Source of the DNA: an uncultured bacterium
Lineage (GTDB): Bacteria; Patescibacteriota; Minisyncoccia; Moranbacterales; UBA2206
Direction: 5' to 3'
NCBI GenBank assembly: GCA_903937035.1
Contig: CAIZXS010000005.1
Coordinates: 62,746 to 126,745 of the forward strand
Length of the DNA: 64,000 nucleotides
Numbering within the stretch: position 1 is the first letter of the stretch; each line of letters starts with the position of its first letter. The notes under the pieces were generated by a model. It did no database searches, was not told where the DNA came from, and was given only the letters and a program-made list of their open reading frames with translations. Of the stretch, positions 1 through 16,848 are shown one piece after another. The position numbers and the translations under genes are program-made.

Positions 1-2277
1 TGAGAAATCTTTTTCCTTGCACTCATCCTTTGGAGCGCTGTCAGTGGAGTAGCCCTGGTCTTTGAGCCAATTTTTTATACCATCCTCCCAATTTTCAAAC
101 TGAGGATCATCTTTGGGGTTTTTAAGGGGATCTCCTCGAACATCATTCTTATTAATGTAATAAAGAATGCTATGTGCATCGGAAAATTTCTTCTTTTTTG
201 TTTTACTCTCTGGGCAAGCGTCATTAGCTAGGCAATATTTGTCATTTTCGCCAGGAATTTCACAAACCTTTAATTCCTTTTTCATTTCCAATTTACCATC
301 AAGGATGTCTTTGTTGGTTTCCTCTGGTTCATATTTTGGAAAATCCTCTGAGTTGTAGTTTTTTAGGGTTTGATCCATAAAACTACGCCAAATTGGAGCG
401 GCAACGAGAATTCCATCAGCACCTTGTTTCATCGTAGAATGATCATTGTTTCCCGCCCAAACTCCCACAGCTAATGATGGCGTGTATCCCATTGTCCAAC
501 CATCACGCCACTCATTGGTGGTTCCGGTTTTTGCAGCCACAGGACGATCGCTGAAGCTGAGGGGATTTTTGTCACCAAAAACCGGAGCGCGAAGACTGTT
601 TGTGGATAATATATAATCAATCATGGCAATATATTTTTCTTCTATTACTTTCTCTCCCTGACCTGTTGTGTATTTTTCTAGTGTGTTTCCTTTGCTGTCT
701 TCAATGCGTAGTATGGCTGTTTTATTATGGCGAATGCCACCTGTTGCAAAGGTGGAAAAGGCATTAACATGGTCCAATAGTTTAACTTCTCCACCGCCAA
801 GCACGAGGGATAATCCGTAGCGGTCAGGCTCATTTAGTGTTGTGATGCCCATATTTTTAGCTGTGGATACGGAGTCTTTTGCACCAGCTAAGTAGAGCGT
901 TTTTACTGCTGGAACATTTAATGACCTCGCTAAGGCATCTTTCATTTGCATGAGACCACTATTTTTCCCGTCATAATTTTTTGGATTGTAAACTTTTCCA
1001 TCTTCTGTGCTAAAGTTAGTGTCCGTGTCCCATATATTGGTTTCCGGGGTAAAGCCTTTTATAAAAGCAGTTAAATAGACGTAGGGCTTAAAGGATGAGC
1101 CTGGCTGCAAAAGGGAGTTGGCTACATTAACGTTTGGCTCAAAAAGGCAACTTTTTCCTGGTGTGCAGCCCTTTGGTTCACTTGGAGCAAAATAATCCTT
1201 ACTGCCAACCATTGCAAGTATTTGCCCGGTTTTGGGATCCATTGCAACTAAACCTGCATTGGATGCGCCATACGTTTTTGTGTTTTTATCCGCGCCTTCC
1301 TTAACAGCTTTTTCTGCTATTTGTTGTTTTTCCCAGTCAAGTGTTGTGTAAACCTTGAAACCGCCTTGTTCAACAGCTGTATCACCATATTTTTGTTGTA
1401 AATAATCTTTGATATACATCACAAAATGAGGAGCGGCAATGATATTTTTTTGTATTTGTATTTTACTCAAAGTTGACTCTTCTATTGCTGCATTAGCCTG
1501 GTCTTCTGTTATATAACCTAATCTCGCCATGGTTTTTAGGGCAAAGTTTTTTCTCCCAATGAGGGCGTCTGTGTGTGAACCATATGGAGAATAGTAGGCA
1601 GTAGCCTGTGGTAGGGCGGAAATGAGCGCTGCTTCATCGAGAGTCAGGTCTTTAGCTGGTTTTCCAAAGAATGTTTGAGCGGCGGCTTCAATGCCGTAGG
1701 CGTTTGAGCCATAGGGGATTTCATTGAGGTACATCGCCAAGATTTCATCTTTTGAGAATTTTGTCTCTACTTCAAGTGAAAGAATAACTTCCTTGATTTT
1801 TCTCACAAGTGTTTTTTCGTTTGAAAGAAGGGAGTTTTTGACAAATTGTTGGGTTATAGTTGACCCTCCTTGGGCCTTACCAAAATTAATAATGTCCTTA
1901 AAAATCGAGCGAAGAATGGAGGTTAGTTTTATTCCATGATGATTGTAAAAATCTTGGTCCTCAAGGCTGATGGTGGCATATTTTAGGACATCAGGCATTT
2001 CATTGAAAGCAATTTGAGTTCTTTTTTCTTCACCATGAACCTCATATAGTAAGTGTTCTCCGGTGCGGTCATAAATCTTTGTTGATTCGGCAATGAAGCG
2101 ATTGTTAATTTTTCCCGGATCGGGGAGATCTTTTGAAAAATAGGCAAATATACCGATAGTTGCCAAGAGGCCAACACCAGCGAGGATGCCAAAAAGTTTA
2201 AGGAGGAGTTTCCATGGAATATGGAATTTTCTCTCTTTCAAATAGGTAGAGTTTTTGGGTGAAAAAATATTTTGCAT
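1..2277 (-). CDS. Class A penicillin-binding protein (PBP1A-like transglycosylase/transpeptidase), C-terminus off window
   Basis: Manual translation of the minus strand from ATG at 2277..2275 gives MQNIFSPKNSTYLKERKFHIPWKLLLKLFGILAGVGLLA (N-terminal TM anchor). Around 1740 the same frame reads LAMYLNEIPYGSNAYGIEAA, the glycosyltransferase family 51 signature. The frame stays open to position 1, so it is absent from the ORF track (no stop in window). Confidence 0.8.
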   Translation of the reverse strand, partial: MQNIFSPKNSTYLKERKFHIPWKLLLKLFGILAGVGLLATIGIFAYFSKDLPDPGKINNRFIAESTKIYDRTGEHLLYEVHGEEKRTQIAFNEMPDVLKYATISLEDQDFYNHHGIKLTSILRSIFKDIINFGKAQGGSTITQQFVKNSLLSNEKTLVRKIKEVILSLEVETKFSKDEILAMYLNEIPYGSNAYGIEAAAQTFFGKPAKDLTLDEAALISALPQATAYYSPYGSHTDALIGRKNFALKTMARLGYITEDQANAAIEESTLSKIQIQKNIIAAPHFVMYIKDYLQQKYGDTAVEQGGFKVYTTLDWEKQQIAEKAVKEGADKNTKTYGASNAGLVAMDPKTGQILAMVGSKDYFAPSEPKGCTPGKSCLFEPNVNVANSLLQPGSSFKPYVYLTAFIKGFTPETNIWDTDTNFSTEDGKVYNPKNYDGKNSGLMQMKDALARSLNVPAVKTLYLAGAKDSVSTAKNMGITTLNEPDRYGLSLVLGGGEVKLLDHVNAFSTFATGGIRHNKTAILRIEDSKGNTLEKYTTGQGEKVIEEKYIAMIDYILSTNSLRAPVFGDKNPLSFSDRPVAAKTGTTNEWRDGWTMGYTPSLAVGVWAGNNDHSTMKQGADGILVAAPIWRSFMDQTLKNYNSEDFPKYEPEETNKDILDGKLEMKKELKVCEIPGENDKYCLANDACPESKTKKKKFSDAHSILYYINKNDVRGDPLKNPKDDPQFENWEDGIKNWLKDQGYSTDSAPKDECKEKDFS

Positions 2278-2359
2278 ATAATAAAATTAAACCTTTTAGG
2301 TCGCTTATAGTTTAATCTAGATTTAGGGAAATATCAAGAAGAGGGGAGGTTGGTTTGAT

Positions 2360-3319
2360 TTAGGTTTCTGATAGTTTTTTCTTGAAAATATCAAGAAGTT
2401 CTTGGTACATTTCTAGCATATAGGGTTTTTCTTCTGGGGTAAAAAATAGTCCAGGCATAGAGTTTAATTCAACTATCCAGGGTTTTTTGTTTTCATCAAA
2501 CATAAAATCAATAGAATATATGCGAGGGCTGAATGTGGCGAAAACGGTATGGGCATAAGTAATAATTGGCTGTAATGATTTGGGCAATTTTTCTTTGGGC
2601 ACAATAATAAGTGAGCCGCCTTGTGCAAGATTAGCTAGGAAGCTTCCATCTTTTGGTTCTCTGATATAGGCATAGATTAATTTATTATTAACAAAAACCA
2701 ATCTAAGGTCATGCATTTTTTTTGATACGCCCGGCACGCCACAAGAAGAGTCAATAAACTCTTGCACAATATTTTCTTTTTCTATTTTCTTAATTTTGCT
2801 AGTATTTTTTTTGCCCATGATTTGAACATCTTTCCCACCACTCTCACTAATCGGCTTTAGGACAATCTTTGTGGAATGAATTTGTGGGAGAATGTTTTTT
2901 AGTTCGCCTAAATTTTTTATGACCCAGCTTTTTTTTGACCATTTATCAAAAATTAGGCTAGTGGTCAGTTTATCATCAATAAGATTGGTAAATCTCAAGT
3001 CATTAATAAAGGGATATCGCTCACCAATCAATTCTTTTTTATAGTAAACTTCTAGGCGCGATTTTGTTTTATCATAAATCAAATCTGGCTGGATGTTTTT
3101 AACCTTTTTCCAATTAGCGCCCTCACCTTCAAATACCCAGGCATATTTAAAAAGCTGTTTCTTGTAATCGTACCACTCATAAGAGGCGCGATACATCTGG
3201 ATGTTATTTTTTTTACAAAGAGAGTAAAAATATTCATAAGAATATTGATAATCTTTATTGCTAAAGGGCTTGGCTTTTTTCCAATCGCTCTTACCAAAAA
3301 GGATCATTACTTTTTTCAT
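2360..3319 (-). CDS. ATP-grasp ligase, RimK-like (fourth of four tandem ATP-grasp genes)
   Basis: 319 aa. C-terminal motif IDFMFDENKKPWIVELNSMPGL matches the ATP-grasp E-x-N...PG signature. Overlaps the upstream gene by 4 nt (3316..3319). Confidence 0.6.
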   Translation of the reverse strand: MKKVMILFGKSDWKKAKPFSNKDYQYSYEYFYSLCKKNNIQMYRASYEWYDYKKQLFKYAWVFEGEGANWKKVKNIQPDLIYDKTKSRLEVYYKKELIGERYPFINDLRFTNLIDDKLTTSLIFDKWSKKSWVIKNLGELKNILPQIHSTKIVLKPISESGGKDVQIMGKKNTSKIKKIEKENIVQEFIDSSCGVPGVSKKMHDLRLVFVNNKLIYAYIREPKDGSFLANLAQGGSLIIVPKEKLPKSLQPIITYAHTVFATFSPRIYSIDFMFDENKKPWIVELNSMPGLFFTPEEKPYMLEMYQELLDIFKKKLSET

Positions 3320-4233
3320 ATATTTAAGGAAATTAGTTGAATTATTTTTTCAGCCACATTTATTTTTGGGTACACCGATTGGAATCCATCGAGTCCGAAA
3401 AATAAATTAACCTCAATTATTAAAAATCCATTGCTTGTTGATAGGATGTCCAGCCCAGCCAGCTCGAGACCCATTTTTTTGCACACGCCAACAGCAAAGC
3501 GGCTCATTTTTGAATTGCTATATTTTTCCACATGCCCTCCGAGAGAGTAGTTGTTTTTCCATTGTCCATTTTGAGCGCTCCTTTTCATTATGCCTAAACA
3601 TTTTCCGCCAACAACTAGCGCTCTGTAATCAGCTTCGTTTTTGACGTAGGGTTGAAAAATCGTATTGGTATTTCTTCGGTTTTCAATAAAGGCAGCTAGT
3701 TCTTTTTCATTTTTTAATTTCCACACACTACTTCCGCCGCCGCCATAGCTTTCTTTAGCAACAAGGGGGAAATGAAAGCCTTGGTTTTTTAAAAAATAAA
3801 AAACGCGTTCTTTTTTATTATCGCAAAAATGGATAGTTGGAATAGCTGGGATTTTTCGCGAAGCAAATATGTGCATCTGAGAAAACTTATTATAGAACGG
3901 ATATTGTTGAAAAAACTTAGAATTCGGAGTATAGATATTTTTATCTTTCAGTATGTCGAGCAAAACACTATATTCATTTTCCAGATTAAAGGGAATTTCT
4001 ACTCCGCTAGTTTTTTTTATGATTGGGAAGCGAAAGATGTCGAAAATAACGGAATTTATTTTTCTTAGGTTTAATTTATTTTTTCCAATATATACATCTT
4101 TTTTAAAAAAAGAAAGCTCGGACCATTTTGCGTATATATGGGGAATATTTGTTTTGTTCAAGGTAGGTATTATTTGCTGTTTTGAGCTAGATTCCTCACC
4201 AATACCTATTAACAGAATTTTTTTCATAGACAA
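3316..4233 (-). CDS. ATP-grasp ligase, RimK-like
   Basis: 305 aa. Glycine-rich loop ESYGGGGSSVWKL. C-terminal AGLDILSTSNGFLIIEVNLFFGLDG resembles RimK AGVDIL...MEVNASPGLEG. Confidence 0.65.
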   Translation of the reverse strand: MSMKKILLIGIGEESSSKQQIIPTLNKTNIPHIYAKWSELSFFKKDVYIGKNKLNLRKINSVIFDIFRFPIIKKTSGVEIPFNLENEYSVLLDILKDKNIYTPNSKFFQQYPFYNKFSQMHIFASRKIPAIPTIHFCDNKKERVFYFLKNQGFHFPLVAKESYGGGGSSVWKLKNEKELAAFIENRRNTNTIFQPYVKNEADYRALVVGGKCLGIMKRSAQNGQWKNNYSLGGHVEKYSNSKMSRFAVGVCKKMGLELAGLDILSTSNGFLIIEVNLFFGLDGFQSVYPKINVAEKIIQLISLNI

Positions 4234-4278
4234 GTCATATCTAATAAGGCCTTATTATTGTGTCCCAAGCTTTGGTCT

Positions 4279-5256
4279 TTATTTTTCAGATAGGTTACTT
4301 TTTTGTGTTGTACTGAGCTTTAAAATAAAATTGATAATATCCCTGATCACGTTTCTAGATTTTCCAGAAGTTGGATTATAATGGATGTAGATGTCGGGTT
4401 TTCCATTTATTTCTAGAATCCCAAATGTTTGATTAGCTGGGTCGGCGGAAATATCCTCGCAAATTATATCAATGCCGGCGAGATAATCGCCAATGGCGTC
4501 AGCAGCCTTGGAACAGATGGAGATAATTTTTGCATTAACTATATCCGTCACATCTCGAGTTTCTCCTCCTTCAGCTAGAGAGGAGCTTTTTTTAATTGAA
4601 GCGATTTCTCCTGCAGCCAGGATGTGATTAAGGGAAAATCCCTGCTCGCTTAATATTTTTTTCAAAGTTCTGTCTATGGGCGTCTTTCTGTGAGTGCTTT
4701 TTTGTTTTTCCTCAATGAGTTTTTCAATGGTAGAAAGGCCATCACCAAAAACTCTTGGCGGAATCATCTCTAATGCTCCAATAACCTTTTCATCTAACAT
4801 AAGAACGCGATATTCTTTGCCAAAAATCATCTCCTGGGCGATAAGAGTTCTGAAATTAGAAATCTCACTCGTTAATATGGAGATTGCTTCTTCTGAGTTT
4901 TTAATGTAAGGAAAAATTCCCTGGCTATTGGAGCCAGAGGAGTCTTTGATGATGATGGGAAATTTGAGGCCAGAAAGCTTGCTGGCAATATCTTTTTTTT
5001 GAAAGTTTTTTCTGAAAAAGAAAACCGTTTCTGGTGTTGGAAGGGAGCGTCTTCGCAGTAGTGTATAGGTTAAGTCTTTGTGTGTTGTTGCTCCTGCTAT
5101 GCTAATGAAGTTTTTGGCAATTCTGAATTTTCTTGTAATTAAAAAAGCCTTCCCTCGGACATGGATATAGTAGCAGCCTCGCTCAGGAATGACCTCCTCA
5201 AATGTTCCTCCCATTTCCTCGACAACTTTTCTGATCAGTGGTGGATTTTTTATCAT
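4279..5256 (-). CDS. ATP-grasp ligase, RimK/cyanophycin-synthetase-like
   Basis: 325 aa. LAGIDIICED...FGILEINGKPDI ATP-grasp signature. Directly abuts the upstream gene (5257). Confidence 0.6.
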   Translation of the reverse strand: MIKNPPLIRKVVEEMGGTFEEVIPERGCYYIHVRGKAFLITRKFRIAKNFISIAGATTHKDLTYTLLRRRSLPTPETVFFFRKNFQKKDIASKLSGLKFPIIIKDSSGSNSQGIFPYIKNSEEAISILTSEISNFRTLIAQEMIFGKEYRVLMLDEKVIGALEMIPPRVFGDGLSTIEKLIEEKQKSTHRKTPIDRTLKKILSEQGFSLNHILAAGEIASIKKSSSLAEGGETRDVTDIVNAKIISICSKAADAIGDYLAGIDIICEDISADPANQTFGILEINGKPDIYIHYNPTSGKSRNVIRDIINFILKLSTTQKSNLSEK

Positions 5257-6663
5257 TTACTTACTTGTATCAATTAAAAACTTTTTCAAATTAACCTTGC
5301 CAATAATCATTGGATATTGCATGTGGGATCGATCAACTATAGTCATCTTTGTGGAAGTAGTGATATTGTCCATGACAAATTCAATATTTATCATTGGGCG
5401 GTATGTATAGCCATGAGAGGATTTGACGGGAATAGCGGAAATGATATCGGGAATTTTTTCATATAATTTTCGACGCTCATCTCTGTTGGTATTTTTCAAA
5501 TCATCATAGGAAATGTTTAATTTTTCAAACTCCTCTAGCGCGCTGCCATAGCCCAGTTGTTGAGCCAATGCGTTGTCTATTGATGACCAATCAGCGCCTG
5601 TGTCAATCTTGGCTTCTATTTCGATTTCTTTTCCGTCCTTGCCAATAAGCCTTACTTTTTCTATTGCGCCGATTACTTTTTTTCCCGAAATTTCTTCCAG
5701 TTCTTCTTCGATTTCTCCTCCAAAGAGATCCATGCCAACGCGAATACCTTTTTTGACAGTTTTGATTTTGATACCAGCCGCTTTTTTCAATCGTCCCTTT
5801 AGTCCATCAAGATTAGCAACTTGAATGGCAAGGCCAGGGCGTGCATTTAATTCCAAAATTACTGGTCCTCGCTCTTTGTCTATTGCTACGTCAACCCCAA
5901 GAAAACCTAGGTTGGAAATTTCTTGTGAGCGAACAGCAATATTTAAGATGTCCATCCAATAGGGGATTTTGATTCCCGAAAGTAAGAGTCTTGTGCCAGG
6001 AACGTATTCAATAATTTTTTGTTTTCCAAGGACCGCTGTCGTTGTTACGCCAGAAGCAAGGTCGATGCCGACACCAATTGCACCTTGCGCCAGGTTAGCT
6101 TTTCCATGTGATTCTTTGGTGGGGAGGCGCAACATTGCCATGATGGGCATTTTATTGAAAACAATAATGCGAATATCTGGGATGCCTTTATATGCGTAGG
6201 GCTTAAAGAGTTTTAAAAGTTTTAAGCGTTCTTCGAAAAAGGCAATATCAGGAATCCCAGAAAGTGAATACGAGCCGTCTAGAATATTCCGTGTATGGTT
6301 TTTGAGGTCATTAATCGTAATAATTGAGCCATCGGCCTTCACCCAAGCATCATCTCTGCGCTTTTTTCGTCCATAAACAACGACAATGCCTTCACCGCCA
6401 AATCCGCGATTAGGTTTTAAAACAAAGCTATCGGGTAATTTTTGCCAATCAAAACCATCCAAATCTTCTAGAGATTTGATTTGAGAGATAAGGGCGGGAA
6501 CAGCAATATCATTTTTCTTGAGTACCCTTTTGCTCAGAAGTTTGTTGTCAGCCAGTCTTTTGGCGCTAACACGGTTGAATGGACGAATGTATTCCAGATT
6601 TCTGGCATTCATTCCGAGAATTCCCCGGCTTTTTTTGATAAATTCAAACATATAGTTTATCAC
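5257..6663 (-). CDS. Fusion protein: alpha-L-glutamate-ligase-like ATP-grasp (ATPgrasp_ST type) + C-terminal retropepsin-like RimB-type putative zinc protease domain (PF05618-like)
   Basis: 468 aa. N-terminus ILGMNARNLEYIRPFN and VILELNARPGLAIQ (ATP-grasp). C-terminus EIEIEAKIDTGADWSSID (D-T-G-A aspartic-protease-like motif) and YRPMINIEFVMDNITTSTKMTIVDRSHMQYPMIIGKVNLKKFLIDTS, matching the RimK-associated protease family pattern. Confidence 0.55.
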   Translation of the reverse strand: MINYMFEFIKKSRGILGMNARNLEYIRPFNRVSAKRLADNKLLSKRVLKKNDIAVPALISQIKSLEDLDGFDWQKLPDSFVLKPNRGFGGEGIVVVYGRKKRRDDAWVKADGSIITINDLKNHTRNILDGSYSLSGIPDIAFFEERLKLLKLFKPYAYKGIPDIRIIVFNKMPIMAMLRLPTKESHGKANLAQGAIGVGIDLASGVTTTAVLGKQKIIEYVPGTRLLLSGIKIPYWMDILNIAVRSQEISNLGFLGVDVAIDKERGPVILELNARPGLAIQVANLDGLKGRLKKAAGIKIKTVKKGIRVGMDLFGGEIEEELEEISGKKVIGAIEKVRLIGKDGKEIEIEAKIDTGADWSSIDNALAQQLGYGSALEEFEKLNISYDDLKNTNRDERRKLYEKIPDIISAIPVKSSHGYTYRPMINIEFVMDNITTSTKMTIVDRSHMQYPMIIGKVNLKKFLIDTSK

Positions 6664-6789
6664 ACACTAACTTCGTGCTGGCACAAAGTGCCAAATAGCT
6701 TTTTATAATAGGTAAATAATTTTTTTCCAACATTTTATTTAACCCCCCCAGTGGTTGCTGATAAAAGCATGGAGTTAGTGTGGGACCGG

Positions 6790-7455
6790 TTAGCTTCTCT
6801 TAATAATCTCCCCAAAGCGCAAATATTCACTGAGGCGCAGCCCTGTCCACTTACCAATGATAACGTTAAGCGGAATTGTGAGAAGAATAACCCATGGGTA
6901 AAAAGCGATAAAATGAATCAAGACTTCCCAGCTAGCAATATAAAAGCCGAGGATGGAAATTAGCAGTGTTTCTGTTGCCAGGAGAATGGCGGCGCGGTCG
7001 CCTTTTTCAATTTGAACGGCAATAAACTTTTCCACCAAAGTAATCATGATAAGAATAGGAAAAATCGAGACAGAGGCGAGTCCAGTTCTTTTTAAGCTTC
7101 CGCCAATCGCGAGCATCAAAAGAATGGAAAGAGCAACAATTGTAAGCATGATGGCCACTCGGGGAAGATAGAGAAGGCGAAAAGATTTAAGGGCAATTCG
7201 CATAAGCATCCCAATGAGAATGATCATTACAAAAATTAAAATCCCATATCTGAGCCCATCCGTCGCTAGAAAGGCGAAAGTGACCAAAAGCGGAGTGTAG
7301 ATTCCAAAAGCCTTAATCCCAATCACTTGGCGCAAAAAAGCGATAAGAGTGGCAATAATCGGTAGCATGAGGATTAGCTTGATTGTTTCAAAGGGCACGC
7401 CCTCATTTAAAAAGAACGTCAAAATAGGGCTAACACTGAAATTGATTTCATTCAT
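6790..7455 (-). CDS. Polytopic membrane protein, ~7 TM helices (possibly 7TM_transglut-like, no transglutaminase domain)
   Basis: 221 aa with seven hydrophobic segments. Start overlaps the ruvC stop by 4 nt (ATGA at 7452..7455), suggesting translational coupling. Lies immediately upstream of the ATP-grasp genes. Confidence 0.4.
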   Translation of the reverse strand: MNEINFSVSPILTFFLNEGVPFETIKLILMLPIIATLIAFLRQVIGIKAFGIYTPLLVTFAFLATDGLRYGILIFVMIILIGMLMRIALKSFRLLYLPRVAIMLTIVALSILLMLAIGGSLKRTGLASVSIFPILIMITLVEKFIAVQIEKGDRAAILLATETLLISILGFYIASWEVLIHFIAFYPWVILLTIPLNVIIGKWTGLRLSEYLRFGEIIKRS

Positions 7456-7946
7456 GATGCATTTTTTAAACTAATTATAGCTCGACTATTGGCGTGACAC
7501 ACAGCAATCGCCAGTGCGTCAGCCACATCATCAGGCTTAGGAATTGCGTTTAGGTGTAATACGCTTTTGATCATTTGTTGCATTTGCTTTTTTTCCGCCC
7601 GGCCATAGCCCGTGAGGGCTTGCTTGACTTGAAGCGGTGTGTAACCAAACACTCTAACACTATTTTGGCGTAAAGTCAAGAGAATTGCCCCGCGGGATTG
7701 CGCGACTTGAATGACGGTTTTTTGGTTCTTGAAAAAAAAGAGCGTTTCAATAGCGGCTTCTGTTGGTTGGTGCTCTCTGATTATTCCCGCTAAATCATCA
7801 GAAACCTCGAGAATTCGCTCATCATCACTGTCATTCTTTGAGGTGCTGATGTGCCCATAGGCCAAAGGCAAGAGTTTATCACCCCTAATTTCAATAATTG
7901 CCCATCCAGTAGTGGCTGTGCCGGGGTCAATTCCGAGAATTTTCAT
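7452..7946 (-). CDS. ruvC: Crossover junction endodeoxyribonuclease RuvC
   Basis: 164 aa. MKILGIDPGTATTGWAIIE...AIPKPDDVADALAIAVCHA, a typical RuvC resolvase fold signature. Confidence 0.9.
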   Translation of the reverse strand: MKILGIDPGTATTGWAIIEIRGDKLLPLAYGHISTSKNDSDDERILEVSDDLAGIIREHQPTEAAIETLFFFKNQKTVIQVAQSRGAILLTLRQNSVRVFGYTPLQVKQALTGYGRAEKKQMQQMIKSVLHLNAIPKPDDVADALAIAVCHANSRAIISLKNAS

Positions 7947-7951
7947 TGTTT

Positions 7952-8668
7952 TTAGCCTAAATTGCTATAAATTTCACTCACATCATCATGGTCATCCAGA
8001 AGTTCCATGAGATTTTCGTAGGTTTCACGCATTTTTGCGTCAACCGTTATGGTAGTTTTGGGTAGATAAATTAGACCCGAGTCAATTATTTTAAGGTTTT
8101 CCTCAGCAAGGCTTTCTCGCACTTTGGCAAAATCTTTCTGATCGGTGATTATATTCAATACGCCTTCTTCCAAAATCGTGTCTTTGGCGCCAGCTTCAAT
8201 GGCGAGCATTTCCAGCTCGTCCGCTTCTTTTCCCTCAAGATCAATGCTGATGTTGCCAACTTGTTCAAAGTTCCACATCGCCGAGCCTTTTTCGCCTAAC
8301 TTGGAATTGTTTTTAGTGAGAATTGTTTTAACTTCCGATACAGTACGGTTTTTATTGTCTGTTGTACAGGAAATGAGGAGCATGAGCTCTCCTGGTCCAA
8401 CCGCTTCATAGAGAATTGCTTCAATCATCGCCCCCTTGATTTCGCCCGTTCCACGCTTAATGGCTCTTTCAATATTTTCTTTGGGCATATTCATCTCTCG
8501 TGCGCGATCAACCGCCATTCTAAGCTGAAAGTTTGATTCGAGCTTCCCTCCACCGTCTCTTGCCGCAATTGTGACTAACTTTCCGTATTTAGTGAAAATT
8601 TTGCCACGCTTAGCGTCGTTTATGCCTTTTCGTTGTTTTATTCCCGCCCAGTGTGAATGTCCTGACAT
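7952..8668 (-). CDS. yebC: YebC/PmpR family DNA-binding transcriptional regulator
   Basis: MSGHSHWAGIKQRKG...KNRTVSEVK family hallmark. The ORF track extends to 8704, but the conserved family N-terminus MSGHSHW begins at 8668. Confidence 0.85.
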   Translation of the reverse strand: MSGHSHWAGIKQRKGINDAKRGKIFTKYGKLVTIAARDGGGKLESNFQLRMAVDRAREMNMPKENIERAIKRGTGEIKGAMIEAILYEAVGPGELMLLISCTTDNKNRTVSEVKTILTKNNSKLGEKGSAMWNFEQVGNISIDLEGKEADELEMLAIEAGAKDTILEEGVLNIITDQKDFAKVRESLAEENLKIIDSGLIYLPKTTITVDAKMRETYENLMELLDDHDDVSEIYSNLG

Positions 8669-9090
8669 AAGCTCATGAAGCATAAAACATATAGCATGTA
8701 ACAAAATACAAATTGCTAGGCGTTTTGCGCTTTTTCGTTAACTATTTTATAGTTCTAGCTTAGCACTTTAATATGAAAAATTCAAGCAAAAATGATTGAC
8801 AAGAATGGTTTTATGTGCTCGAATAAATAGTCTAAGTTGGTTTTTTAAGGCTTAGAACAAGGCTAGCTCAGTTAGTTGATAAAAAGGAGCTAGAGTTTTT
8901 TGGCAAGAATGCTTTTTTAGTTCAAGGCTTATAGCACAAAAACTAAACCTATTTCCCTTTTATTATTTTTAAGGGCAAAAATATTAAAATATTTTAAAAA
9001 AGTTTTCCGCTGTGGGCGGATTTTTTTGTGGGAACTTATCTTGGTTTGATTTGTGAGAATGAGAATTGATTTCTGTGATTAAAAAATTTA

Positions 9091-9123
9091 GAAATAAAAA
9101 AAGCCAGGGTTGTCATGCCTGGC
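9091..9123 (-). terminator. Rho-independent terminator downstream of 9177..9476 gene
   Basis: Hairpin gccaggg-tgtcat-gcctggc (9103..9123), preceded on the plus strand by an A run (a T run on the minus strand). Confidence 0.5.
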
Positions 9124-9176
9124 GTAGCTTCTTTGGGCTAATCACGATTTGCAGTTAAGAATAATAAATCTAAAGA

Positions 9177-9476
9177 TTATGCCCTAGAATAGATTTTAAT
9201 TTCCCATTTCTTCTCTGCGCATTCAGTGCAAAAATATTGACCATCAAATTTTTTCACCAGGATTTTTTTTATGGCGGCTCCAATTCTTGATCTGGTACTC
9301 ACAAGCTCCATCAAGGCCATATTTACGAGCTCCTTGATGGTGATGAAGGTTTGCCTGCCATCACCTCCGCAGTTGGCGCAGTTATGAAAAACTGATTTTT
9401 GCTCAAGCAAAACATCTGCCTCAAAGCAACTATTGTCGCAGGTGATACTAATCCTGTTTTTTATTTTTGGCATCAT
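9177..9476 (-). CDS. Small zinc-ribbon protein (CxxxC/CxxC x3), function unknown
   Basis: 99 aa with Cys pairs CDNSC, CANC and CTEC. Own terminator downstream. Confidence 0.45.
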   Translation of the reverse strand: MMPKIKNRISITCDNSCFEADVLLEQKSVFHNCANCGGDGRQTFITIKELVNMALMELVSTRSRIGAAIKKILVKKFDGQYFCTECAEKKWEIKIYSRA

Positions 9477-9585
9477 TGCTCCCTTATATTTCTAGCGTTG
9501 TAGGGGTATATGTTAAATAGCAATTCAATTTGATTCTAATAAGGTACTATAGTTTAATATTTAGTAGAAGTCAATAGTGAAAGGT

Positions 9586-11625
9586 TTAAAATATTAAAAT
9601 AATTTCATTCAACTTCGCATTTATTTTTTTCCAAAATTGGTTTGGTGATTTTGCGCTTGTCGTTTTTTGAGAAATATTTTTAGTGGTTGCGGCTCCCAAA
9701 ACTAGACCTTGATTCGGCAATAACTTTTTAGATGGAGAAATATTTGATCCGGCGAAAAGCAAGGCGATTTGTTTTTCTCGTTTTGCACTCCAGCTTGGGT
9801 TTTCACTATATTTTCCTAAATCAGATAGAGCGAAGTCGGCCTTTTCTTGTTCTAGCTCTGGTGTGCTGTTTGCATTGCCCTCTGAATTATTTAATTCTGT
9901 TTCCTGACCAATAGCTGCCACTTCTGTATTATTTTGTGAGATAATTTTAGTATTAGGTAATGTCTCTGTTTCTGCATTATTTTGATCATTTGTCCATTGC
10001 CAATCATTGCCGTCTTTTCGGTAGAGCTCATCTTCTAAGATCGAATCATCTTTGCGGTCATATTTGAGTTTGTCAGCCACCTTGCCATTAGGATATCGCA
10101 GTTCAATCTTGGCTTGCTTGTTGCCGAGGGAGAATGCACAGAAATCACGTGTCAGTTTTTTTATTTCTCCAGCTTTTAGAATAAATTTCTTGTTGATTGG
10201 ATGGTTGTAGAGATTTTTCCAGCCAGTGGCAATGCTCCAACCCTTGAGATTAACTTTTTTCTTGGTGTCGTTCCGAACTTCTAGCCACTCATATTTTGAA
10301 TCTTTTCCCTTGGGATTTGGCGAAAGAGAAATGATACGAACCTTGGCTTTGCCAAATTTTTCCACTACAACTTTAAAATTAAGCACATTATCTTCGCCAT
10401 CACCAGTGATTTTTAGTGAGGCCGCATAAGCACCTGCTTTTTCATATTTATGGCGGGTTTTTTGGAGATAGCTTTTGTGTCCATCACCGAAATCCCAAGT
10501 GAAATGTTTTGCTTTCTCATTAGCCTTTGCCTCAAAGTTGGCATAAATTCCAACATAGATCGTTTTATCTTTTTCAATTTGGGAGGATAAGAGCTCATCA
10601 AATTGATTTTCTACTCCTTTTGTGTCTTTGCTCGTCCATTGCCAAGCGGAGCCGTTCCAGGCATAGGCGTAGTCGTATTTTGGTTTCACATAACTTACGG
10701 AATCGATAGAATTTTCTTTTGTGCCATCTTTGGGCACAAGAAAAGCTGTGTCTGGCGAGGTGTTATTAAATTCGAAAGTTCCTTCCAGATAAACTAGCTC
10801 TTTTGGCGCAATTAGTTTTTCAGGAAAAGTAACTTTATGATTTTTTTCATCTTCAATCCACATCCCCGAAAGAGAAATAGTTTCATCTGAAATATTAACT
10901 ATCTCCACAAATTCTTTTTCAGCGTTTTTTGTTTTTGGTGCTGGAAAAATCTCGTTGATTTTGAGCTTGCCAGTGTAGGTATCTTTTTTTTCTTTGGTTG
11001 TATCATCTTTTGGCCCATCTGATTTTCCAGAATTTTTTCCCACTAAATTAGTGGGGGATGGATTGTTTTGTGACGAAAAATCCTTAATGTTATCACCCGT
11101 ATCTTGAAAGTTTTTTCTTTCAATACTTTCTCCCTCAGCAGGATTTATGGCTGGATTATTTTCATAATCCTTAGCTGTTCCAAATCCAACCTTATCAACT
11201 AGAACTGCGCTGGCATCATATAGGAGAATGGTGTTGTTGCTGGAAATTGAATAAGAAGATCCTGAATAAGGCAGATCAGCGGAAACAGTATCCCTATAGT
11301 CAGAATGAGCGATTAAGAAATATTTACGAGAAGATAGGATCCCTGAAAATTTGGATGAAGAAATTAGATTGCTTTCTGTTCCTGTTGAGGTTTTCTTAGT
11401 TAATTTGTAGCCGGAAAGATTAATTTCTAAATCAGTTGGGTTGTATAGCTCTATAAATTCTTCCGTTGATTTTCCTGTCCCGCCGCCAGTTTGAATTTCA
11501 CTAATGATCAGATGTGAAACAACTTCTTCAGCCAAACAGTTTTTCCCAAAACAAAAAATCGCCACCGCTAAAAAAGGTAAAAATATAAACAAACTTATTT
11601 TTGTTTTTATATTTTTATTTTTCAC
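9586..11625 (-). CDS. Secreted protein with three lamin-tail domains (LTD) and one PKD domain
   Basis: 679 aa. Signal peptide KISLFIFLPFLAVAIFCF. LTD motifs ISEIQTGGG..EFIELYNPTDLEINLSGYKL, KINEIFPAP..EFVEIVNISDETISLSGMWI and VRIISLSPNPKG..EWLEVRNDTKKKVNLKGWSI. PKD motif HFTWDFGDGH...YEKAGAYAASLKITGDGED. Confidence 0.7.
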   Translation of the reverse strand: MKNKNIKTKISLFIFLPFLAVAIFCFGKNCLAEEVVSHLIISEIQTGGGTGKSTEEFIELYNPTDLEINLSGYKLTKKTSTGTESNLISSSKFSGILSSRKYFLIAHSDYRDTVSADLPYSGSSYSISSNNTILLYDASAVLVDKVGFGTAKDYENNPAINPAEGESIERKNFQDTGDNIKDFSSQNNPSPTNLVGKNSGKSDGPKDDTTKEKKDTYTGKLKINEIFPAPKTKNAEKEFVEIVNISDETISLSGMWIEDEKNHKVTFPEKLIAPKELVYLEGTFEFNNTSPDTAFLVPKDGTKENSIDSVSYVKPKYDYAYAWNGSAWQWTSKDTKGVENQFDELLSSQIEKDKTIYVGIYANFEAKANEKAKHFTWDFGDGHKSYLQKTRHKYEKAGAYAASLKITGDGEDNVLNFKVVVEKFGKAKVRIISLSPNPKGKDSKYEWLEVRNDTKKKVNLKGWSIATGWKNLYNHPINKKFILKAGEIKKLTRDFCAFSLGNKQAKIELRYPNGKVADKLKYDRKDDSILEDELYRKDGNDWQWTNDQNNAETETLPNTKIISQNNTEVAAIGQETELNNSEGNANSTPELEQEKADFALSDLGKYSENPSWSAKREKQIALLFAGSNISPSKKLLPNQGLVLGAATTKNISQKTTSAKSPNQFWKKINAKLNEIILIF

Positions 11626-13827: not shown

Positions 13828-16800
13828 CTATATCTCTGTTACTCTTTCCACTTCCTCCAAAGTAGTCTCACCCTCTAAAACTTTCAAAATTCCATCTTGT
13901 GGCATTGTGATCATGCCTTCTTCCATGGCTTTTTGATTGAGTTCAGATGTGACTGCTCCTCGCATGACAGCTTCTTGGATTTCGCGGGAGAATGTAAATA
14001 TTTCACTGATGGTTGTGCGGCCCTTATAGCCAATGTGATTGCATTTATCGCAGCCATTGGGTTTGTGAATCTCTGATATTTCCGGGATTTCTACGCCTGC
14101 TTTTAGACTGATCGTTTTTAGGACTTTTTCCATCTTCTGTTTCTTTTCTTCAGTCGGAGCGATTTTTATTTTGCACTCACAGAGTGTGCGGACCAAGCGT
14201 TGAGCGATAAAAGCGTTGACTCCAGAGACAATATCCTCCGGTGCAACGCCCATATTGAGCATTCTAGCTACTGCTCCGGCAGCATTGTTGGTGTGGAGGG
14301 TGGAAAGTACGAGATGCCCCGTGAGAGCGGCTTGAACGGCAATGCTCGCGGTTTCATTGTCGCGGATTTCACCAATCATCATTATGTCGGGATTTTGGCG
14401 AAGCAGGGCGCGCAGGGCTGTGGAGAAAGTATAACCATCTTTTTCGCTGACGGGAGTTTGCAAGATACCTTCCATCTGATATTCGATTGGATCTTCCACG
14501 GTGATGATTTTGATTTCAGGATTTTTAATTAAATTCAAAATAGCATAGAGTGTAGTGGTTTTCCCGCTGCCAGTCGGTCCAGTATTCAAGACGACGCCAT
14601 TTGGTTTTGATACTTCAATTTTTATTTTTTCCAAATTTTGCTTTCTGATTCCTAGCTTATCCAAGTTCAGCTCCACAGATGATTTACTGAGAAGTCGCAT
14701 TACAACTGTTTCTCCAAACCCACCCAAAATTATAGACACACGGATGTCAACAGTCTTTTCTTTTAATTCTGTTAACTCTTCATCAAAACTGATACTAAAG
14801 CGACTATCGATTACACCTTGCCTCGCTTCAGTTTTCACGCCACTGAGCAGCTTGATCTGGCCCAAAAAGGTCGTGTATTCAGTAAGAGGAAGAGAGGCGA
14901 TTGTTTGGAGGATGCCATCAATGCGGAAGCGGATTTTGACGCTTTCCTTTTCTGGTTCAATGTGAATGTCTCCTACACTCAAAATTTGAGCAGCGGAAAA
15001 AATGATCTTAATGGTGTCTGTGATTTTTGTTCCAACAAGGAGCGTTTGCATTTTTTCAAAATCATTAACATTGTCCTTGGTTTTGTCAAAAAACTCCTTT
15101 TTAATCGGCAAGGTACTGCCTAGGATTTGTGACATTAATTTTTCATAAATACTTTCCAAAAAGTCCCCTTGTCCAGTGACTTTTTTCACCTCGTCAATGG
15201 AGGTGACACCACTTACGGCTTTTAGGATTCCATCTTGGAGCATTGTTACCATGCCTTCTTCAAGAACGGCCATCGTTATTTCTGTTTCACCAGCCAAATC
15301 AAGAATCAGTTTTTCTGTTTCCGGACTAATTGTGAGAACTTCAAAAATACCCATTCGTCCTTTATAACCAGTATTACCACATTTAAGGCAACCTTTTGGG
15401 CGATAGAGTTGATCAATGCTTTTGGGAATTTCCACTTTCGCTCGTGGAGAAATGATGGATAAAATTCTTTTGATTGAATCAATTGTTTCTTTGGCGGGAA
15501 CATAGGATTCTTTGCAGCTACAAAGCTTGCGAACTAGTCGTTGCCCGATAACGGCGTTTACTGCTGGGGCGATGAAAGAAGGCTTGACGCCCATTTCAAC
15601 GAGACGGGGAATGGAGGCAATTGCACTATTGGTATGAAAAGTGGAAAGCACGAGATGTCCAGTGAGGGCAGAGTTGATGGCGATGTCAGCTGTTTCATCA
15701 TCGCGGATTTCACCAACTAGAATAATATCTGGATCTTGACGCACGATTGCGCGAAGACCGGTGGCAAAAGTGTAGCCACGAGCTTTTTCGATCTGAGTTT
15801 GGGAGACTCCTTTGACTTGGTACTCGATTGGATCTTCGATGGTGATAATCTTTTTATCTGGAGTGTTTAGCTTGCTGATAATGGCATAAAGAGTGGTAGT
15901 TTTTCCGCTGCCAGTTGGCCCTGTAGTGAGGATCATGCCATTTGGGGCTTCGATTTGCTTTTGAACTGTTTCATAGGCTAATCCCTGCAATCCGAGCTGC
16001 TCAATGTTGACATTGATCGAATCTGGATCAAGGAGTCGCATTACGATGGACTCTCCAAAGCTGCCAGGAATCGATGAAGCGCGGATAGCAATTTTTTTAT
16101 TTGATAGATTGACCTCAAAAGTTCCGTCTTGCGCCATATCAGAAAGATTGAGTTTCATGCCAGACATCATCTTGATTCTTGTCGCGATTCTTTTGTGGAT
16201 ATTGAGTGGAAAAAAAGCCACATCCTGGAGTACTCCGTCGATTCGATAGCGCAAGCGAAAATCTTTTTCTTCTGGCTCAATGTGAACATCGGATGCTCCT
16301 AGTGAATATGCTCCGGCCATGATGGTGTTCATGACGTCGGTTATAGGCATTTCCTTGATTCTGTCTTTTAGGACAATCAGGTTTTTTAGGGCTGTTTCAA
16401 ATTCACCAAGTTCGCTGTCATCAATTGTTAGACTTAACTGATCAAGGATTTCAGCGAAAACAATTTTTTTGTATTTTTCCAAAACTCGATCAAAGTTGTA
16501 ACTTGAAATAACAAAGAGTTTTGTTTGTATCCCGAGTTTTTCGGAAAAAGCTTTAAGGAATTCTCTCGTGTCTTCTCTCGTGGGGTCGGTGGTTACGATT
16601 GTGGCAAGCTTGCTTTTTCGTTGGATGGCGGCAATGCCGAATTTTCTGGCAGCACTTTCTTCAATCAATTTCAAGCTATCAATGGAAACGGGAACAATGT
16701 TGGTGTCAATATAGGGGAGTTCAAGTTGGGCAGCAAATTGCGCTGTCTTTTCCTCTTCTGATTGATGCTGCAGCTTGGAAACTAATTTGCTTGAAGTGGC

Positions 16801-16848
16801 TTTTTTTTCTTCTTCTGCCCCAACTGTTTTTTTTGTTATTTTTATCAT
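13828..16848 (-). CDS. Type II/IV secretion system ATPase (GspE/PilB family) with two complete tandem ATPase cores in one polypeptide
   Basis: 1006 aa. N-terminal T2SE_Nter-like region. Two Walker A boxes (TGPTGSGKTTTLYAI twice), two Asp boxes, two His boxes (LVLSTFHTN / LVLSTLHTN) and two tetracysteine motifs (CSCK..CLKCGNTGYKGR and CECK..CDKCNHIGYKGR). Confidence 0.85.
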   Translation of the reverse strand: MIKITKKTVGAEEEKKATSSKLVSKLQHQSEEEKTAQFAAQLELPYIDTNIVPVSIDSLKLIEESAARKFGIAAIQRKSKLATIVTTDPTREDTREFLKAFSEKLGIQTKLFVISSYNFDRVLEKYKKIVFAEILDQLSLTIDDSELGEFETALKNLIVLKDRIKEMPITDVMNTIMAGAYSLGASDVHIEPEEKDFRLRYRIDGVLQDVAFFPLNIHKRIATRIKMMSGMKLNLSDMAQDGTFEVNLSNKKIAIRASSIPGSFGESIVMRLLDPDSINVNIEQLGLQGLAYETVQKQIEAPNGMILTTGPTGSGKTTTLYAIISKLNTPDKKIITIEDPIEYQVKGVSQTQIEKARGYTFATGLRAIVRQDPDIILVGEIRDDETADIAINSALTGHLVLSTFHTNSAIASIPRLVEMGVKPSFIAPAVNAVIGQRLVRKLCSCKESYVPAKETIDSIKRILSIISPRAKVEIPKSIDQLYRPKGCLKCGNTGYKGRMGIFEVLTISPETEKLILDLAGETEITMAVLEEGMVTMLQDGILKAVSGVTSIDEVKKVTGQGDFLESIYEKLMSQILGSTLPIKKEFFDKTKDNVNDFEKMQTLLVGTKITDTIKIIFSAAQILSVGDIHIEPEKESVKIRFRIDGILQTIASLPLTEYTTFLGQIKLLSGVKTEARQGVIDSRFSISFDEELTELKEKTVDIRVSIILGGFGETVVMRLLSKSSVELNLDKLGIRKQNLEKIKIEVSKPNGVVLNTGPTGSGKTTTLYAILNLIKNPEIKIITVEDPIEYQMEGILQTPVSEKDGYTFSTALRALLRQNPDIMMIGEIRDNETASIAVQAALTGHLVLSTLHTNNAAGAVARMLNMGVAPEDIVSGVNAFIAQRLVRTLCECKIKIAPTEEKKQKMEKVLKTISLKAGVEIPEISEIHKPNGCDKCNHIGYKGRTTISEIFTFSREIQEAVMRGAVTSELNQKAMEEGMITMPQDGILKVLEGETTLEEVERVTEI

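What the first reader, a model, noticed from the sequence alone, without database searches (positions are those of the whole stretch)
5257..6663. Single-polypeptide fusion of a glutamate-ligase-like ATP-grasp with its putative antagonistic protease
The N-terminal ~300 aa (ILGMNARNLEYI ... VILELNARPGLAIQ) look like the alpha-L-glutamate-ligase-like ATP-grasp family. The C-terminal ~140 aa (EIEIEAKIDTGADWSSID ... MQYPMIIGKVNLKKFLIDTS) match the retropepsin-like RimB/DUF785-type protease pattern. Putting a ligase and a tail-trimming protease in one protein implies tightly coupled add/remove chemistry or self-processing. In described Pseudomonas rimABK systems these are separate proteins.
Basis: partly seen in the sequence, partly recalled or inferred. 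Interest (0 to 1): 0.5.

Follow-up and report, generated by a model that had tools for sequence, protein, structure and literature searches.

The report
Rlo-type ligase–retropepsin fusion gene
This gene really does join a peptide-adding enzyme (ATP-grasp ligase) to a retrovirus-like protease that probably trims its product; the fusion is conserved across many ultra-small (CPR/Patescibacteria) bacteria and is a compact, undescribed variant of the recently characterised RloABC system, not an artefact.

Summary
Window 5257..6663 (-) is one uninterrupted ORF, probably starting at the ATG at 6651 (464 aa). It has an RloC-type ATP-grasp domain (PF14397, E 5e-66; TIGR02291, 292.6 bits) and a C-terminal retropepsin domain (PF05618, E 1e-10, above the Pfam cutoff). 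The retropepsin keeps K-x-D-T-G-A and two arginines that align with polyglutamate-binding residues of RloA.

A frameshift artefact is excluded. All 120 best protein clusters, and about 76 of the 80 best species-level genome loci, carry the same full-length fusion, down to 36% identity across many Patescibacteria lineages.

The closest described system is RloABC of Pseudomonas aeruginosa, not RimABK. A 7TM RloB-like gene without the transglutaminase domain sits immediately upstream in every fused locus where upstream DNA is present. A protease–ligase fusion in the opposite order (RimBK) is already published.

The fused protease has no signal peptide and no cysteines, so it is cytoplasmic like RimB. 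Most likely the protein is a "writer–eraser" enzyme acting at the cytoplasmic face of the 7TM partner. Self-processing at the conserved Glu-rich linker is possible but weakly supported.

Verdict: a new variant of a known kind, of moderate interest.

The parts
5257..6651 (-). Fusion gene: RloC-type ATP-grasp ligase joined to a retropepsin. It is 464 aa from the ATG at 6651; the ORF is open up to the GTG at 6663 (468 aa).
   Evidence: ORF. Homologue lengths and N-termini. Pfam and NCBIfam. AF2 model pLDDT 83.
5776..6633 (-). ATP-grasp ligase domain (aa 11-296 in 468-aa numbering). It includes the invariant Mg/ATP motif E-L-N-A-R-P-G.
   Evidence: TIGR02291 at 292.6 bits and PF14397 at E 5e-66. 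Foldseek on the model hits cyanophycin synthetase, ArgX/LysX and RimK. The motif is conserved in almost all fused homologues.
5677..5727 (-). Inter-domain linker LFGGEIEEELEEISGKK. It is modelled as disordered but is nearly invariant.
   Evidence: pLDDT is below 50 at residues 313-327 of the 464-aa model. These columns are invariant or nearly so. The motif FGGE[IV]E[EQ]EhE.[IL]SGK is kept down to about 42% overall identity but replaced in Shapirobacteria-type homologues.
5278..5676 (-). Retropepsin (RimB/RloA-like, PF05618) domain. The catalytic D-T-G is encoded at 5596-5604.
   Evidence: PF05618 at E 1e-10. A profile search hits the RloA crystal structures 9g58 and 9g59 (E 2e-7), with K-x-DTGA, R422 and R445 aligned to RloA residues. 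For the domain model, all top Foldseek hits are retropepsins. BLASTP against a canonical RloA gives E 9e-11.
6790..7455 (-). RloB-like 7TM membrane protein (221 aa) without the transglutaminase-like domain. Its start overlaps the ruvC stop (ATGA).
   Evidence: PF14402 at E 2e-32, matching only positions 312-507 of the 508-position RloB model. Hydropathy. The gene is immediately upstream of the fusion in every fused locus with upstream DNA present.
4279..5256 (-). Second ATP-grasp ligase (325 aa), similar to the ATP-grasp module of cyanophycin synthetase. Its start codon directly abuts the stop of the fusion gene.
   Evidence: TIGR02068 at E 1e-50 on profile positions 211-473. Sequence junction.
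3316..4233 (-). Third ATP-grasp ligase (305 aa), RimK family-like.
   Evidence: PF08443 at E 1.7e-27. TIGR00768 at 114.7 bits, below the 143.4 cutoff.
2360..3319 (-). Fourth ATP-grasp ligase (319 aa), RimK/TTL/YheCD-like.
   Evidence: PF08443 at E 4e-12 and PF03133 TTL at E 6.6e-9. Orthologues follow the fusion gene in many relatives.

Best explanation
The gene encodes a cytoplasmic two-domain enzyme of the Rlo type. The N-terminal RloC-like ATP-grasp ligase is the 'writer'. It would add amino acids, most plausibly alpha-linked glutamate, to a peptide or protein C-terminus or to an envelope precursor. The C-terminal retropepsin is the 'eraser'. Retropepsins are active only as homodimers, so the fusion would have to dimerise to be active. 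The dimer would cleave the acidic product and so limit or recycle it. The protease domain may also stimulate the ligase, as RimB does for RimK.

The enzyme works with the 7TM RloB-like protein encoded just upstream, which would anchor, present or export the substrate. One to three further ATP-grasp ligases downstream probably extend or diversify the product.

Shown here: domain identities, intact catalytic motifs, absence of a signal peptide, TM segment or cysteines, strict gene linkage with the 7TM gene, and wide conservation. Inferred: the chemistry (Glu addition and polyGlu cleavage), the dimerisation, the physical contact with the 7TM protein, and the substrate.
For: Domain assignments.

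Catalytic and substrate residues: K-x-D-T-G-A plus R418 and R441 (464-aa numbering) are conserved in virtually all two-domain fusions. They align with RloA K46/D48, R114 and R137, which were shown to bind and cleave polyGlu (alignment; PMC12239564). The ligase E-x-N-A-R-P-G motif is also conserved.

Location: there is no hydrophobic segment (maximum 19-residue hydropathy 1.4). By direct reading of the translation, the protease domain has no Cys. The periplasmic RloA disulfide is therefore absent, as in cytosolic RimB.

Linkage: a 7TM gene lies directly upstream in every fused locus where upstream DNA is present. Independent 7TM-ATP-grasp fusions exist (P0252, P0264), which argues for physical coupling of the ligase to the 7TM module.

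Genetics in P. aeruginosa: deleting rloB or rloC suppresses the triple rloA deletion (delta-rloA1-3). So the protease removes something that RloB and RloC make.

Precedent: RimB both trims Glu tails and stimulates RimK, and a RimBK hybrid is protease-active.
Against: No biochemical data exist for any RloC-type ligase, so its substrate and the amino acid it adds are unknown. The TIGR02291 score (292.6) is below the curated cutoff (314.2). RloA-model scores (about 42 bits) are far below their cutoffs, so orthology to RloA or RloC is not established.

In Pseudomonas the protease acts in the periplasm. A cytoplasmic protease here could mean a different substrate.

No polyGlu-containing ORF occurs in the 64-kb window. 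In about 42 related triple fusions the retropepsin-like region has lost DTG. The domain can therefore persist without catalysis, which suggests a scaffolding or regulatory role.
Confidence: 0.6

Rival explanations
1. Self-processing polyprotein or autoinhibition. The conserved, disordered, Glu-rich linker (GGEIEEELEEISGKK) would be an intramolecular substrate or pseudosubstrate of the Glu-specific retropepsin. The protease would either excise itself from the ligase, as a retroviral protease does from Gag-Pol, or stay plugged until the real substrate arrives.
For: The linker is modelled as disordered (pLDDT below 50). It is nevertheless nearly invariant in Moranbacteria and recognisable down to about 42% identity. 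RimB and RloA cleave internal polyGlu stretches.
Against: The longest Glu run is 3. RimB needs about 5-6 contiguous Glu and RloA needs at least 8, and interrupting residues abolish cleavage. The hydrophobic residues sit at i, i+4 and i+7 (I-L-I), which fits an amphipathic helix better than an extended substrate. Shapirobacteria-type fusions replace the motif with 'GEKFFEKIEEKEKKK'. Standalone RloC proteins lack any such tail.
Confidence: 0.1
2. The retropepsin domain acts mainly as a non-proteolytic module for dimerisation, substrate binding or allosteric activation of the ligase, and not as an antagonistic eraser.
For: RimB stimulates RimK ATPase activity and polyGlu synthesis independently of trimming. 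About 42 of the top 150 family representatives keep a retropepsin-like middle region that has lost DTG and carry a MATCAP metallopeptidase instead. Some two-domain homologues (for example P0188) have also lost DTG.
Against: In this protein, and in essentially all two-domain fusions, K-x-DTGA and both substrate arginines are strictly conserved. That conservation indicates selection for catalysis.
Confidence: 0.15
3. The cluster modifies a cell-envelope component such as a peptidoglycan stem or bridge, or a surface polymer, and not protein C-termini. The 7TM protein would act as exporter or flippase-like partner.
For: Pfam names PF14397 'sugar-transfer associated'. A PBP1-type transglycosylase/transpeptidase follows the ligase genes in the window (1-2286) and in most relatives. 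Pseudomonas rlo mutants have hypo-osmotic, beta-lactam and cell-shape phenotypes.
Against: The PBP linkage may simply reflect conserved synteny near dnaA/dnaN in Patescibacteria, and it is not seen in the Shapirobacteria-type loci. The protease residues match those that bind alpha-linked polyGlu peptides. This is a question about substrate identity and is compatible with the writer-eraser mechanism.
Confidence: 0.1
4. The fusion is an assembly or frameshift artefact that joins two adjacent genes.
For: Two relatives (L038, L064) show the gene split into two ORFs.
Against: All 120 best clusters from many independent assemblies are full-length fusions. About 76 of 80 species-level loci match residues 1-464. 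The junction sequence itself is conserved.
Confidence: 0.01

Closest known systems
RloABC operon of Pseudomonas aeruginosa (Lormand et al. 2025, mBio, PMC12239564)
   Same: It has the same three modules: a TIGR02291-type ATP-grasp (RloC), a PF14402 7TM membrane module (RloB) and a PF05618 retropepsin with a DTGA motif and conserved Lys/Arg substrate residues (RloA). All are encoded together. The genetic logic is that the protease counteracts a product of the other two.
   Different: Here the ligase and protease are one polypeptide, with the ligase N-terminal. The protease has no signal peptide and no disulfide cysteines, so it is cytoplasmic and not periplasmic. The RloB-like protein has only the 7TM part (221 aa against about 510 aa, with no inactive transglutaminase). 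The host is a Patescibacteria (Moranbacteria) genome, whereas RloB was reported as 96% proteobacterial. One to three extra ATP-grasp genes follow.
RimBK hybrid enzyme (Desulfotalea psychrophila DP2392; Little et al. 2025, JBC, PMC11957791)
   Same: It is a single polypeptide combining a retropepsin-like Glu-specific protease with an ATP-grasp glutamate ligase. It is cytoplasmic, and the protease part was shown to be active.
   Different: The domain order is reversed: protease N-terminal in RimBK, C-terminal here. The ligase there is RimK family, whereas here it is RloC-type (52.9 bits on the RimK model against 292.6 on TIGR02291). RimBK has no 7TM partner. It occurs mainly in Flavobacteriales and Rhodobacterales.
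RimABK system of Pseudomonas fluorescens
   Same: It uses writer-eraser logic: RimK adds C-terminal Glu residues to RpsF and RimB trims them and stimulates RimK. The protease is cytosolic and lacks the RloA disulfide.
   Different: The proteins are separate. It includes a cyclic-di-GMP phosphodiesterase, RimA. It has no membrane partner. The ribosomal protein S6 substrate is not indicated here.
Tubulin tyrosine ligase (TTL/TTLL) with MATCAP/vasohibin carboxypeptidases (functional analogy only)
   Same: An ATP-grasp-fold ligase adds amino acids to a protein C-terminal tail and a dedicated peptidase removes them. Relatives of this gene are fused to a MATCAP (PF08014) domain.
   Different: It is a eukaryotic cytoskeletal system with separate proteins. 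The window gene has no MATCAP domain.
Retroviral protease embedded in Gag-Pol
   Same: It is a retropepsin monomer embedded in a larger polypeptide and must dimerise to be active.
   Different: There is no evidence here for autoprocessing, and the specificity residues match acidic substrates.

Membership tests
RloABC system | RloC-type ATP-grasp (NCBIfam TIGR02291 at or above the curated cutoff of 314.2 bits) | tested here: inconclusive
   It is the best-scoring family by far (292.6 bits, E 3e-87, profile positions 8-290 of 317) but falls just below the cutoff. A canonical gammaproteobacterial RloC scores 445 bits.
RloABC system | Retropepsin with a DTG(A) motif and the Lys/Arg residues that coordinate polyGlu (RloA K46, D48, R114, R137) | tested here: met
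   K352-I-D354-T-G-A, R422 and R445 (468-aa numbering) are invariant and align to the corresponding RloA positions in 9g58 and 9g59.
RloABC system | RloA is a separate, secreted protein with an N-terminal signal peptide and a conserved disulfide | tested here: not met
   The protease is an internal C-terminal domain. It has no hydrophobic segment and no cysteines (sequence). RloA NCBIfam scores of about 42 bits are far below the cutoffs of 210-280.
RloABC system | RloB is an inactive transglutaminase domain (PF14400) fused to 7TM (PF14402) | tested here: not met
   Only PF14402 is present, in a 221-aa protein that matches RloB model positions 312-507. The canonical L083 protein has both domains.
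RloABC system | The 7TM module is encoded next to the ligase and protease | tested here: met
   It is immediately upstream in the window and in every fused locus with upstream DNA present.
RloABC system | Cleavage of 8 or more Glu, and a role in hypo-osmotic tolerance | not testable with these tools
   This needs biochemistry and genetics.
RimBK / RimABK | RimK-family ligase (TIGR00768 at or above 143.4 bits, or PRK10446) | tested here: not met
   52.9 bits on TIGR00768 and 16.5 bits on PRK10446.
RimBK / RimABK | RimB-type protease (NF052261) | tested here: not met
   There is no hit to NF052261 at E<=0.01, whereas the RloA1-3 models do hit. The model exists and is hit by a canonical RloA.
RimBK / RimABK | Protease domain N-terminal to the ligase (RimBK hybrid) | tested here: not met
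   The order here is ligase (aa 11-296) then protease (aa 330-462).
RimBK / RimABK | Ribosomal protein S6 (RpsF) with a C-terminal Glu as substrate | not tested
   rpsF was not looked for. No ORF in the window has a run of 5 or more consecutive Asp/Glu residues at its C-terminus.
Retropepsin fold (clan AA, family A2-like) | Retropepsin beta-barrel fold with a single DTG per chain | tested here: met
   The AF2 domain model has pLDDT 83. All of the top roughly 40 Foldseek PDB hits are retropepsins: Ddi1 RVP, RloA, RloA2, Lpg0085 and HTLV/HIV/EIAV proteases.
Retropepsin fold (clan AA, family A2-like) | Obligate homodimer forming the two-Asp active site | not testable with these tools
   Only single-chain prediction is available. 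Dimerisation is inferred from the family.
ATP-grasp superfamily | ATP-grasp fold with the Mg/ATP-binding E-x-N motif | tested here: met
   Foldseek hits cyanophycin synthetase, ArgX/LysX, RimK and Ddl at E 1e-10 to 1e-8. E-L-N-A-R-P-G is invariant.

The most novel reading that the evidence does not exclude
The fused, signal-less form could be a self-regulating 'polyprotein' writer-eraser. The invariant, disordered acidic linker (FGGEIEEEhEEISGK) would occupy the positively charged retropepsin channel as a built-in pseudosubstrate or cleavage site. Protease activity, or release of the protease, would then be gated by the ligase's acidic product at the cytoplasmic face of a minimal 7TM partner. 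If so, the Patescibacteria version would be a two-gene minimal Rlo system. It would show that Rlo chemistry can take place entirely inside the cell.
Probability: 0.1. Interest if true: 0.7.

Novelty: new variant of a known kind. Interest (0 to 1): 0.4.

Why it matters
The RloABC system was characterised only in 2025. It affects osmotic tolerance, antibiotic sensitivity, biofilm formation and cell shape in Pseudomonas, but its substrate and mechanism are unknown.

The widespread Patescibacteria variant found here reduces the system to two genes. These are a 7TM module without its periplasmic domain, and one polypeptide carrying both ligase and protease.

- It supports the view that the protease acts on the ligase's product.
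- It shows that the 7TM module, not the transglutaminase-like domain, is the constant partner of the ligase.
- It shows that the protease need not be extracytoplasmic.
- It offers a simpler protein for reconstituting the chemistry in vitro.
- It extends the Rlo-type system well beyond Proteobacteria.

Tried and rejected
- **Frameshift or assembly artefact:** rejected on the conservation data.
- **RimABK membership:** rejected. The RimK and RimB models are not met and the domain order is reversed.
- **Linker as a canonical polyGlu cleavage site:** the linker was examined across 176 homologues and in standalone RloC proteins. It has no Glu run of 5 or more, an amphipathic spacing pattern, and is not universal, so this reading was kept only as a low-probability rival.
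- **Promoter and terminator scan of 1800-9600:** no enrichment over shuffles, so uninformative.
- **Second retropepsin, MATCAP or polyGlu ORF in the window:** none found.
- **Iyer/Aravind 2009 amidoligase paper (PMC3268129):** from memory it may describe this gene neighbourhood, but it is not held, so it could not be checked.
- **Literature searches:** searches for the Pfam, TIGRFAM and COG identifiers and for '7TM / inactive transglutaminase / ATP-grasp' found no description of the fusion in Patescibacteria.
- **Whole-protein Foldseek:** the top 50 hits were all ATP-grasp enzymes, so the C-terminal domain was modelled and searched separately.
Full report
**Observation**

The window carries one uninterrupted ORF at 5257..6663 on the minus strand, 468 aa from a GTG. 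Close homologues are almost all about 464 aa and begin 'MFEF/MFDF'. The real start is therefore probably the ATG at 6651.

Pfam places PF14397 (ATPgrasp_ST) on aa 21-294 (E 5e-66). It places PF05618 (Zn_protease, now called RimB-like) on aa 330-462 (E 9.7e-11, 42.2 bits against a gathering cutoff of 27).

NCBIfam places TIGR02291 'alpha-L-glutamate ligase-like protein' on aa 11-296 (292.6 bits against a cutoff of 314.2). It places the retropepsin models RloA3, RloA1 and RloA2 on aa 326-464 (43, 42 and 29 bits, far below their cutoffs). There is no hit to the RimB model at E<=0.01.

**Not an artefact**

All 120 best 90%-identity clusters (65-98% identity) carry both PF14397 and PF05618. They come from JGI, NCBI, ENA and Logan assemblies, and most are named Candidatus Moranbacteria or Parcubacteria.

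A scan of one genome per GTDB species found at least 584 relatives. Of the best 80 loci, about 76 match query residues 1-464, down to 36% identity. Their record titles name Moran-, Paceibacteria, Dojkabacteria/WS6, Kerfeld-, Falkow-, Levy-, Shapiro- and Portnoybacteria. Some MAGs carry other labels. The first unfused hits (residues 2-290 only) are a gammaproteobacterium and an Alcaligenaceae MAG.

Only two loci (L038, L064) have the gene split into two ORFs.

**Structure and catalytic residues**

An AF2 model of the whole protein has mean pLDDT 83. The N-terminal domain matches cyanophycin synthetase, ArgX/LysX, RimK and Ddl (Foldseek E 1e-10 to 1e-8). The ATP-grasp Mg/ATP motif E-L-N-A-R-P-G is invariant.

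The C-terminal domain was modelled alone (pLDDT 83). Its top hits are all retropepsins: Ddi1 RVP domains, RloA2 (9g59), Lpg0085/DUF785 (2pma), RloA (9g58), and the HTLV, EIAV and HIV proteases.

A profile of the family hits the two RloA crystal structures by sequence (E 2e-7 and 1e-4). K-x-D-T-G-A, '..Y-R-P..' and '..D-R-S..YP.(I/L)IG' are aligned. These positions correspond to RloA K46/D48, R114 and R137, which were shown experimentally to bind and cleave polyglutamate (PMC12239564). They are conserved in virtually all two-domain fusions.

The fused protein has no hydrophobic segment (maximum 19-residue hydropathy 1.4). Its protease domain contains no cysteine. The disulfide typical of periplasmic RloA is therefore absent, as it is in cytosolic RimB. 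The protease is thus cytoplasmic.

**Genomic context**

- **Upstream.** The gene directly upstream (6790..7455, -) is a 221-aa PF14402 '7TM_transglut' protein. It matches only the C-terminal 7TM part (positions 312-507 of 508) of the RloB model. Its ATG overlaps the ruvC stop.
- **Downstream.** With no intergenic gap, three further ATP-grasp genes follow. They are cyanophycin-synthetase-like (4279..5256), RimK-like (3316..4233) and RimK/TTL/YheCD-like (2360..3319). A PBP1-type gene then runs off the window (1..2286).
- **In relatives.** Across 80 related loci, the 7TM gene is immediately upstream of the fusion wherever upstream DNA is present. ruvC usually precedes it. One to three variable ATP-grasp genes, sometimes with a MATCAP-like peptidase, follow, and then PBP1.
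- **The 7TM N-terminal domain varies.** It is absent in Moranbacteria, a PKD domain in Kerfeld- and Falkowbacteria, and the canonical inactive transglutaminase in a gammaproteobacterial locus. That locus has separate rloA (203 aa), rloB (528 aa) and rloC (318 aa; 445 bits on TIGR02291).
- **Other fusions.** Independent 7TM-ATP-grasp fusions also exist.

**What is known**

RloABC was described in 2025 (PMC12239564). RloA proteases are secreted retropepsins that cleave stretches of at least 8 Glu. RloB is an inner-membrane protein with an inactive transglutaminase and 7TM. RloC is a cytosolic ATP-grasp protein. Deleting rloB or rloC suppresses the defects of the triple protease mutant, which implies that the protease removes something made by RloB and RloC. 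RloB was reported as 96% proteobacterial.

RimB, the cytosolic paralogue, trims Glu tails added by RimK to RpsF and also stimulates RimK. A RimBK hybrid with the protease at the N-terminus is known from Desulfotalea, Flavobacteriales and Rhodobacterales and is proteolytically active (PMC11957791).

A ligase-protease fusion is therefore not new in principle. I found no description of the RloC-type-ligase::retropepsin fusion, of its pairing with a 7TM-only RloB, or of its Patescibacteria-wide distribution. The Iyer/Aravind 2009 amidoligase survey, which may mention this neighbourhood, could not be read.

**Mechanism**

The best-supported reading is a cytoplasmic writer-eraser enzyme acting with the 7TM partner.

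- The ligase adds amino acids, by analogy glutamate.
- The retropepsin must dimerise to form a two-Asp site. It would then cleave the acidic product and may also activate the ligase.
- The extra ligases would extend or vary the product.

The chemistry, the dimerisation, the contact with the 7TM protein and the substrate are all inferred.

The linker LFGGEIEEELEEISGKK is intriguing. It is modelled as disordered yet is nearly invariant, and it is recognisable down to about 42% identity. However:

- It has at most three consecutive Glu.
- Its hydrophobic residues are spaced i, i+4, i+7, which suggests an amphipathic helix.
- It is replaced in Shapirobacteria-type fusions.
- It is absent from standalone RloC proteins.

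Self-cleavage or pseudosubstrate inhibition is therefore only a low-probability rival.

**Wider family**

I classified the top 150 representatives at 50% identity (1972 hits at E<=1e-3) by architecture:

| Architecture | Count |
|---|---|
| ATP-grasp + retropepsin with intact D[TS]G | 33 |
| The same, plus a MATCAP domain | 4 |
| About 790-aa triple fusions: retropepsin-like middle region without DTG, plus MATCAP (PF08014) | 42 |
| ATP-grasp + a degenerate retropepsin-like or other C-terminal extension | 16 |
| Standalone ligases | 39 |
| 7TM-ligase fusions | 4 |
| Fragments | 12 |

This pattern fits a ligase that is repeatedly coupled to a peptidase. It also shows that the retropepsin module can persist without catalysis. 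That supports a secondary structural or regulatory role.

**Verdict**

This is a new variant of a known kind: an Rlo-type system with a RimB-like cytoplasmic protease fused to the ligase. Interest is moderate. It is not very surprising given RimBK, but it is useful as a minimal and widely conserved form of a system whose mechanism is still open.

Noticed in passing
L063:6977-9421 (Dojkabacteria); proteins P0134, P0137, P0142, P0147 and others: A large group of triple fusions, about 780-820 aa: RloC-type ATP-grasp, then a retropepsin-like middle region, then a MATCAP (PF08014, tubulin-detyrosinase-like) metallopeptidase. In 42 of 46 such representatives the DTG motif is lost, as if MATCAP had replaced the retropepsin as the 'eraser'. 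A 7TM gene is again upstream in L063.
   Followed up: partly
window 2360-5256 (-): Three further ATP-grasp ligase genes (cyanophycin-synthetase-like, RimK-like, TTL/YheCD-like) follow the fusion gene directly, giving four ligases in a row. The number and type of these extra ligases vary from one to three among relatives, like a variable cassette beside the constant 7TM + fusion pair.
   Followed up: partly
L003:5112-8011 and L004:3249-6604: In a Moranbacteria relative, the fusion gene is followed by a DUF3541 protein, a TTL-like ATP-grasp and a separate MATCAP (PF08014) gene. This looks like a second candidate ligase/peptidase pair in the same neighbourhood.
   Followed up: no
P0252, P0264, P0268, P0270; L046:5386-7014, L049:3362-4957: Other architectures of the same system. 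Some proteins have the 7TM module fused directly to the ATP-grasp ligase. In Kerfeld- and Falkowbacteria, the 7TM proteins have a PKD domain as their N-terminal domain, not an inactive transglutaminase.
   Followed up: partly
L039:7119-7664: A standalone retropepsin ORF (182 aa) lies immediately downstream of the fused gene in one Paceibacteria MAG. That locus therefore has both a fused and a free protease.
   Followed up: no
L038:6995-8537 and L064:3042-4455: In these two relatives the fusion gene is split into two overlapping ORFs. This is probably a frameshift, either an assembly error or a pseudogene.
   Followed up: no
window 7452-7455: The ruvC stop and the start of the 7TM gene overlap (ATGA). 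The order yebC-ruvC-7TM-fusion is conserved in most relatives, so the Rlo-like genes may be co-transcribed with DNA-repair genes.
   Followed up: partly
window 13828-16848 (-): A 1006-aa protein that appears to contain two tandem PilB/GspE-type (T2SSE) secretion ATPase modules in one polypeptide. The orthologue in L001 has an MshEN domain plus two T2SSE hits.
   Followed up: no
window 9586-11625 (-): A 679-aa protein with a probable N-terminal signal or anchor sequence. It has three repeats resembling lamin-tail-domain motifs ('..EFIELYNPT..', '..EFVEIVNIS..', '..EWLEVRNDT..'). This rests on my reading of the translation only and was not searched.
   Followed up: no
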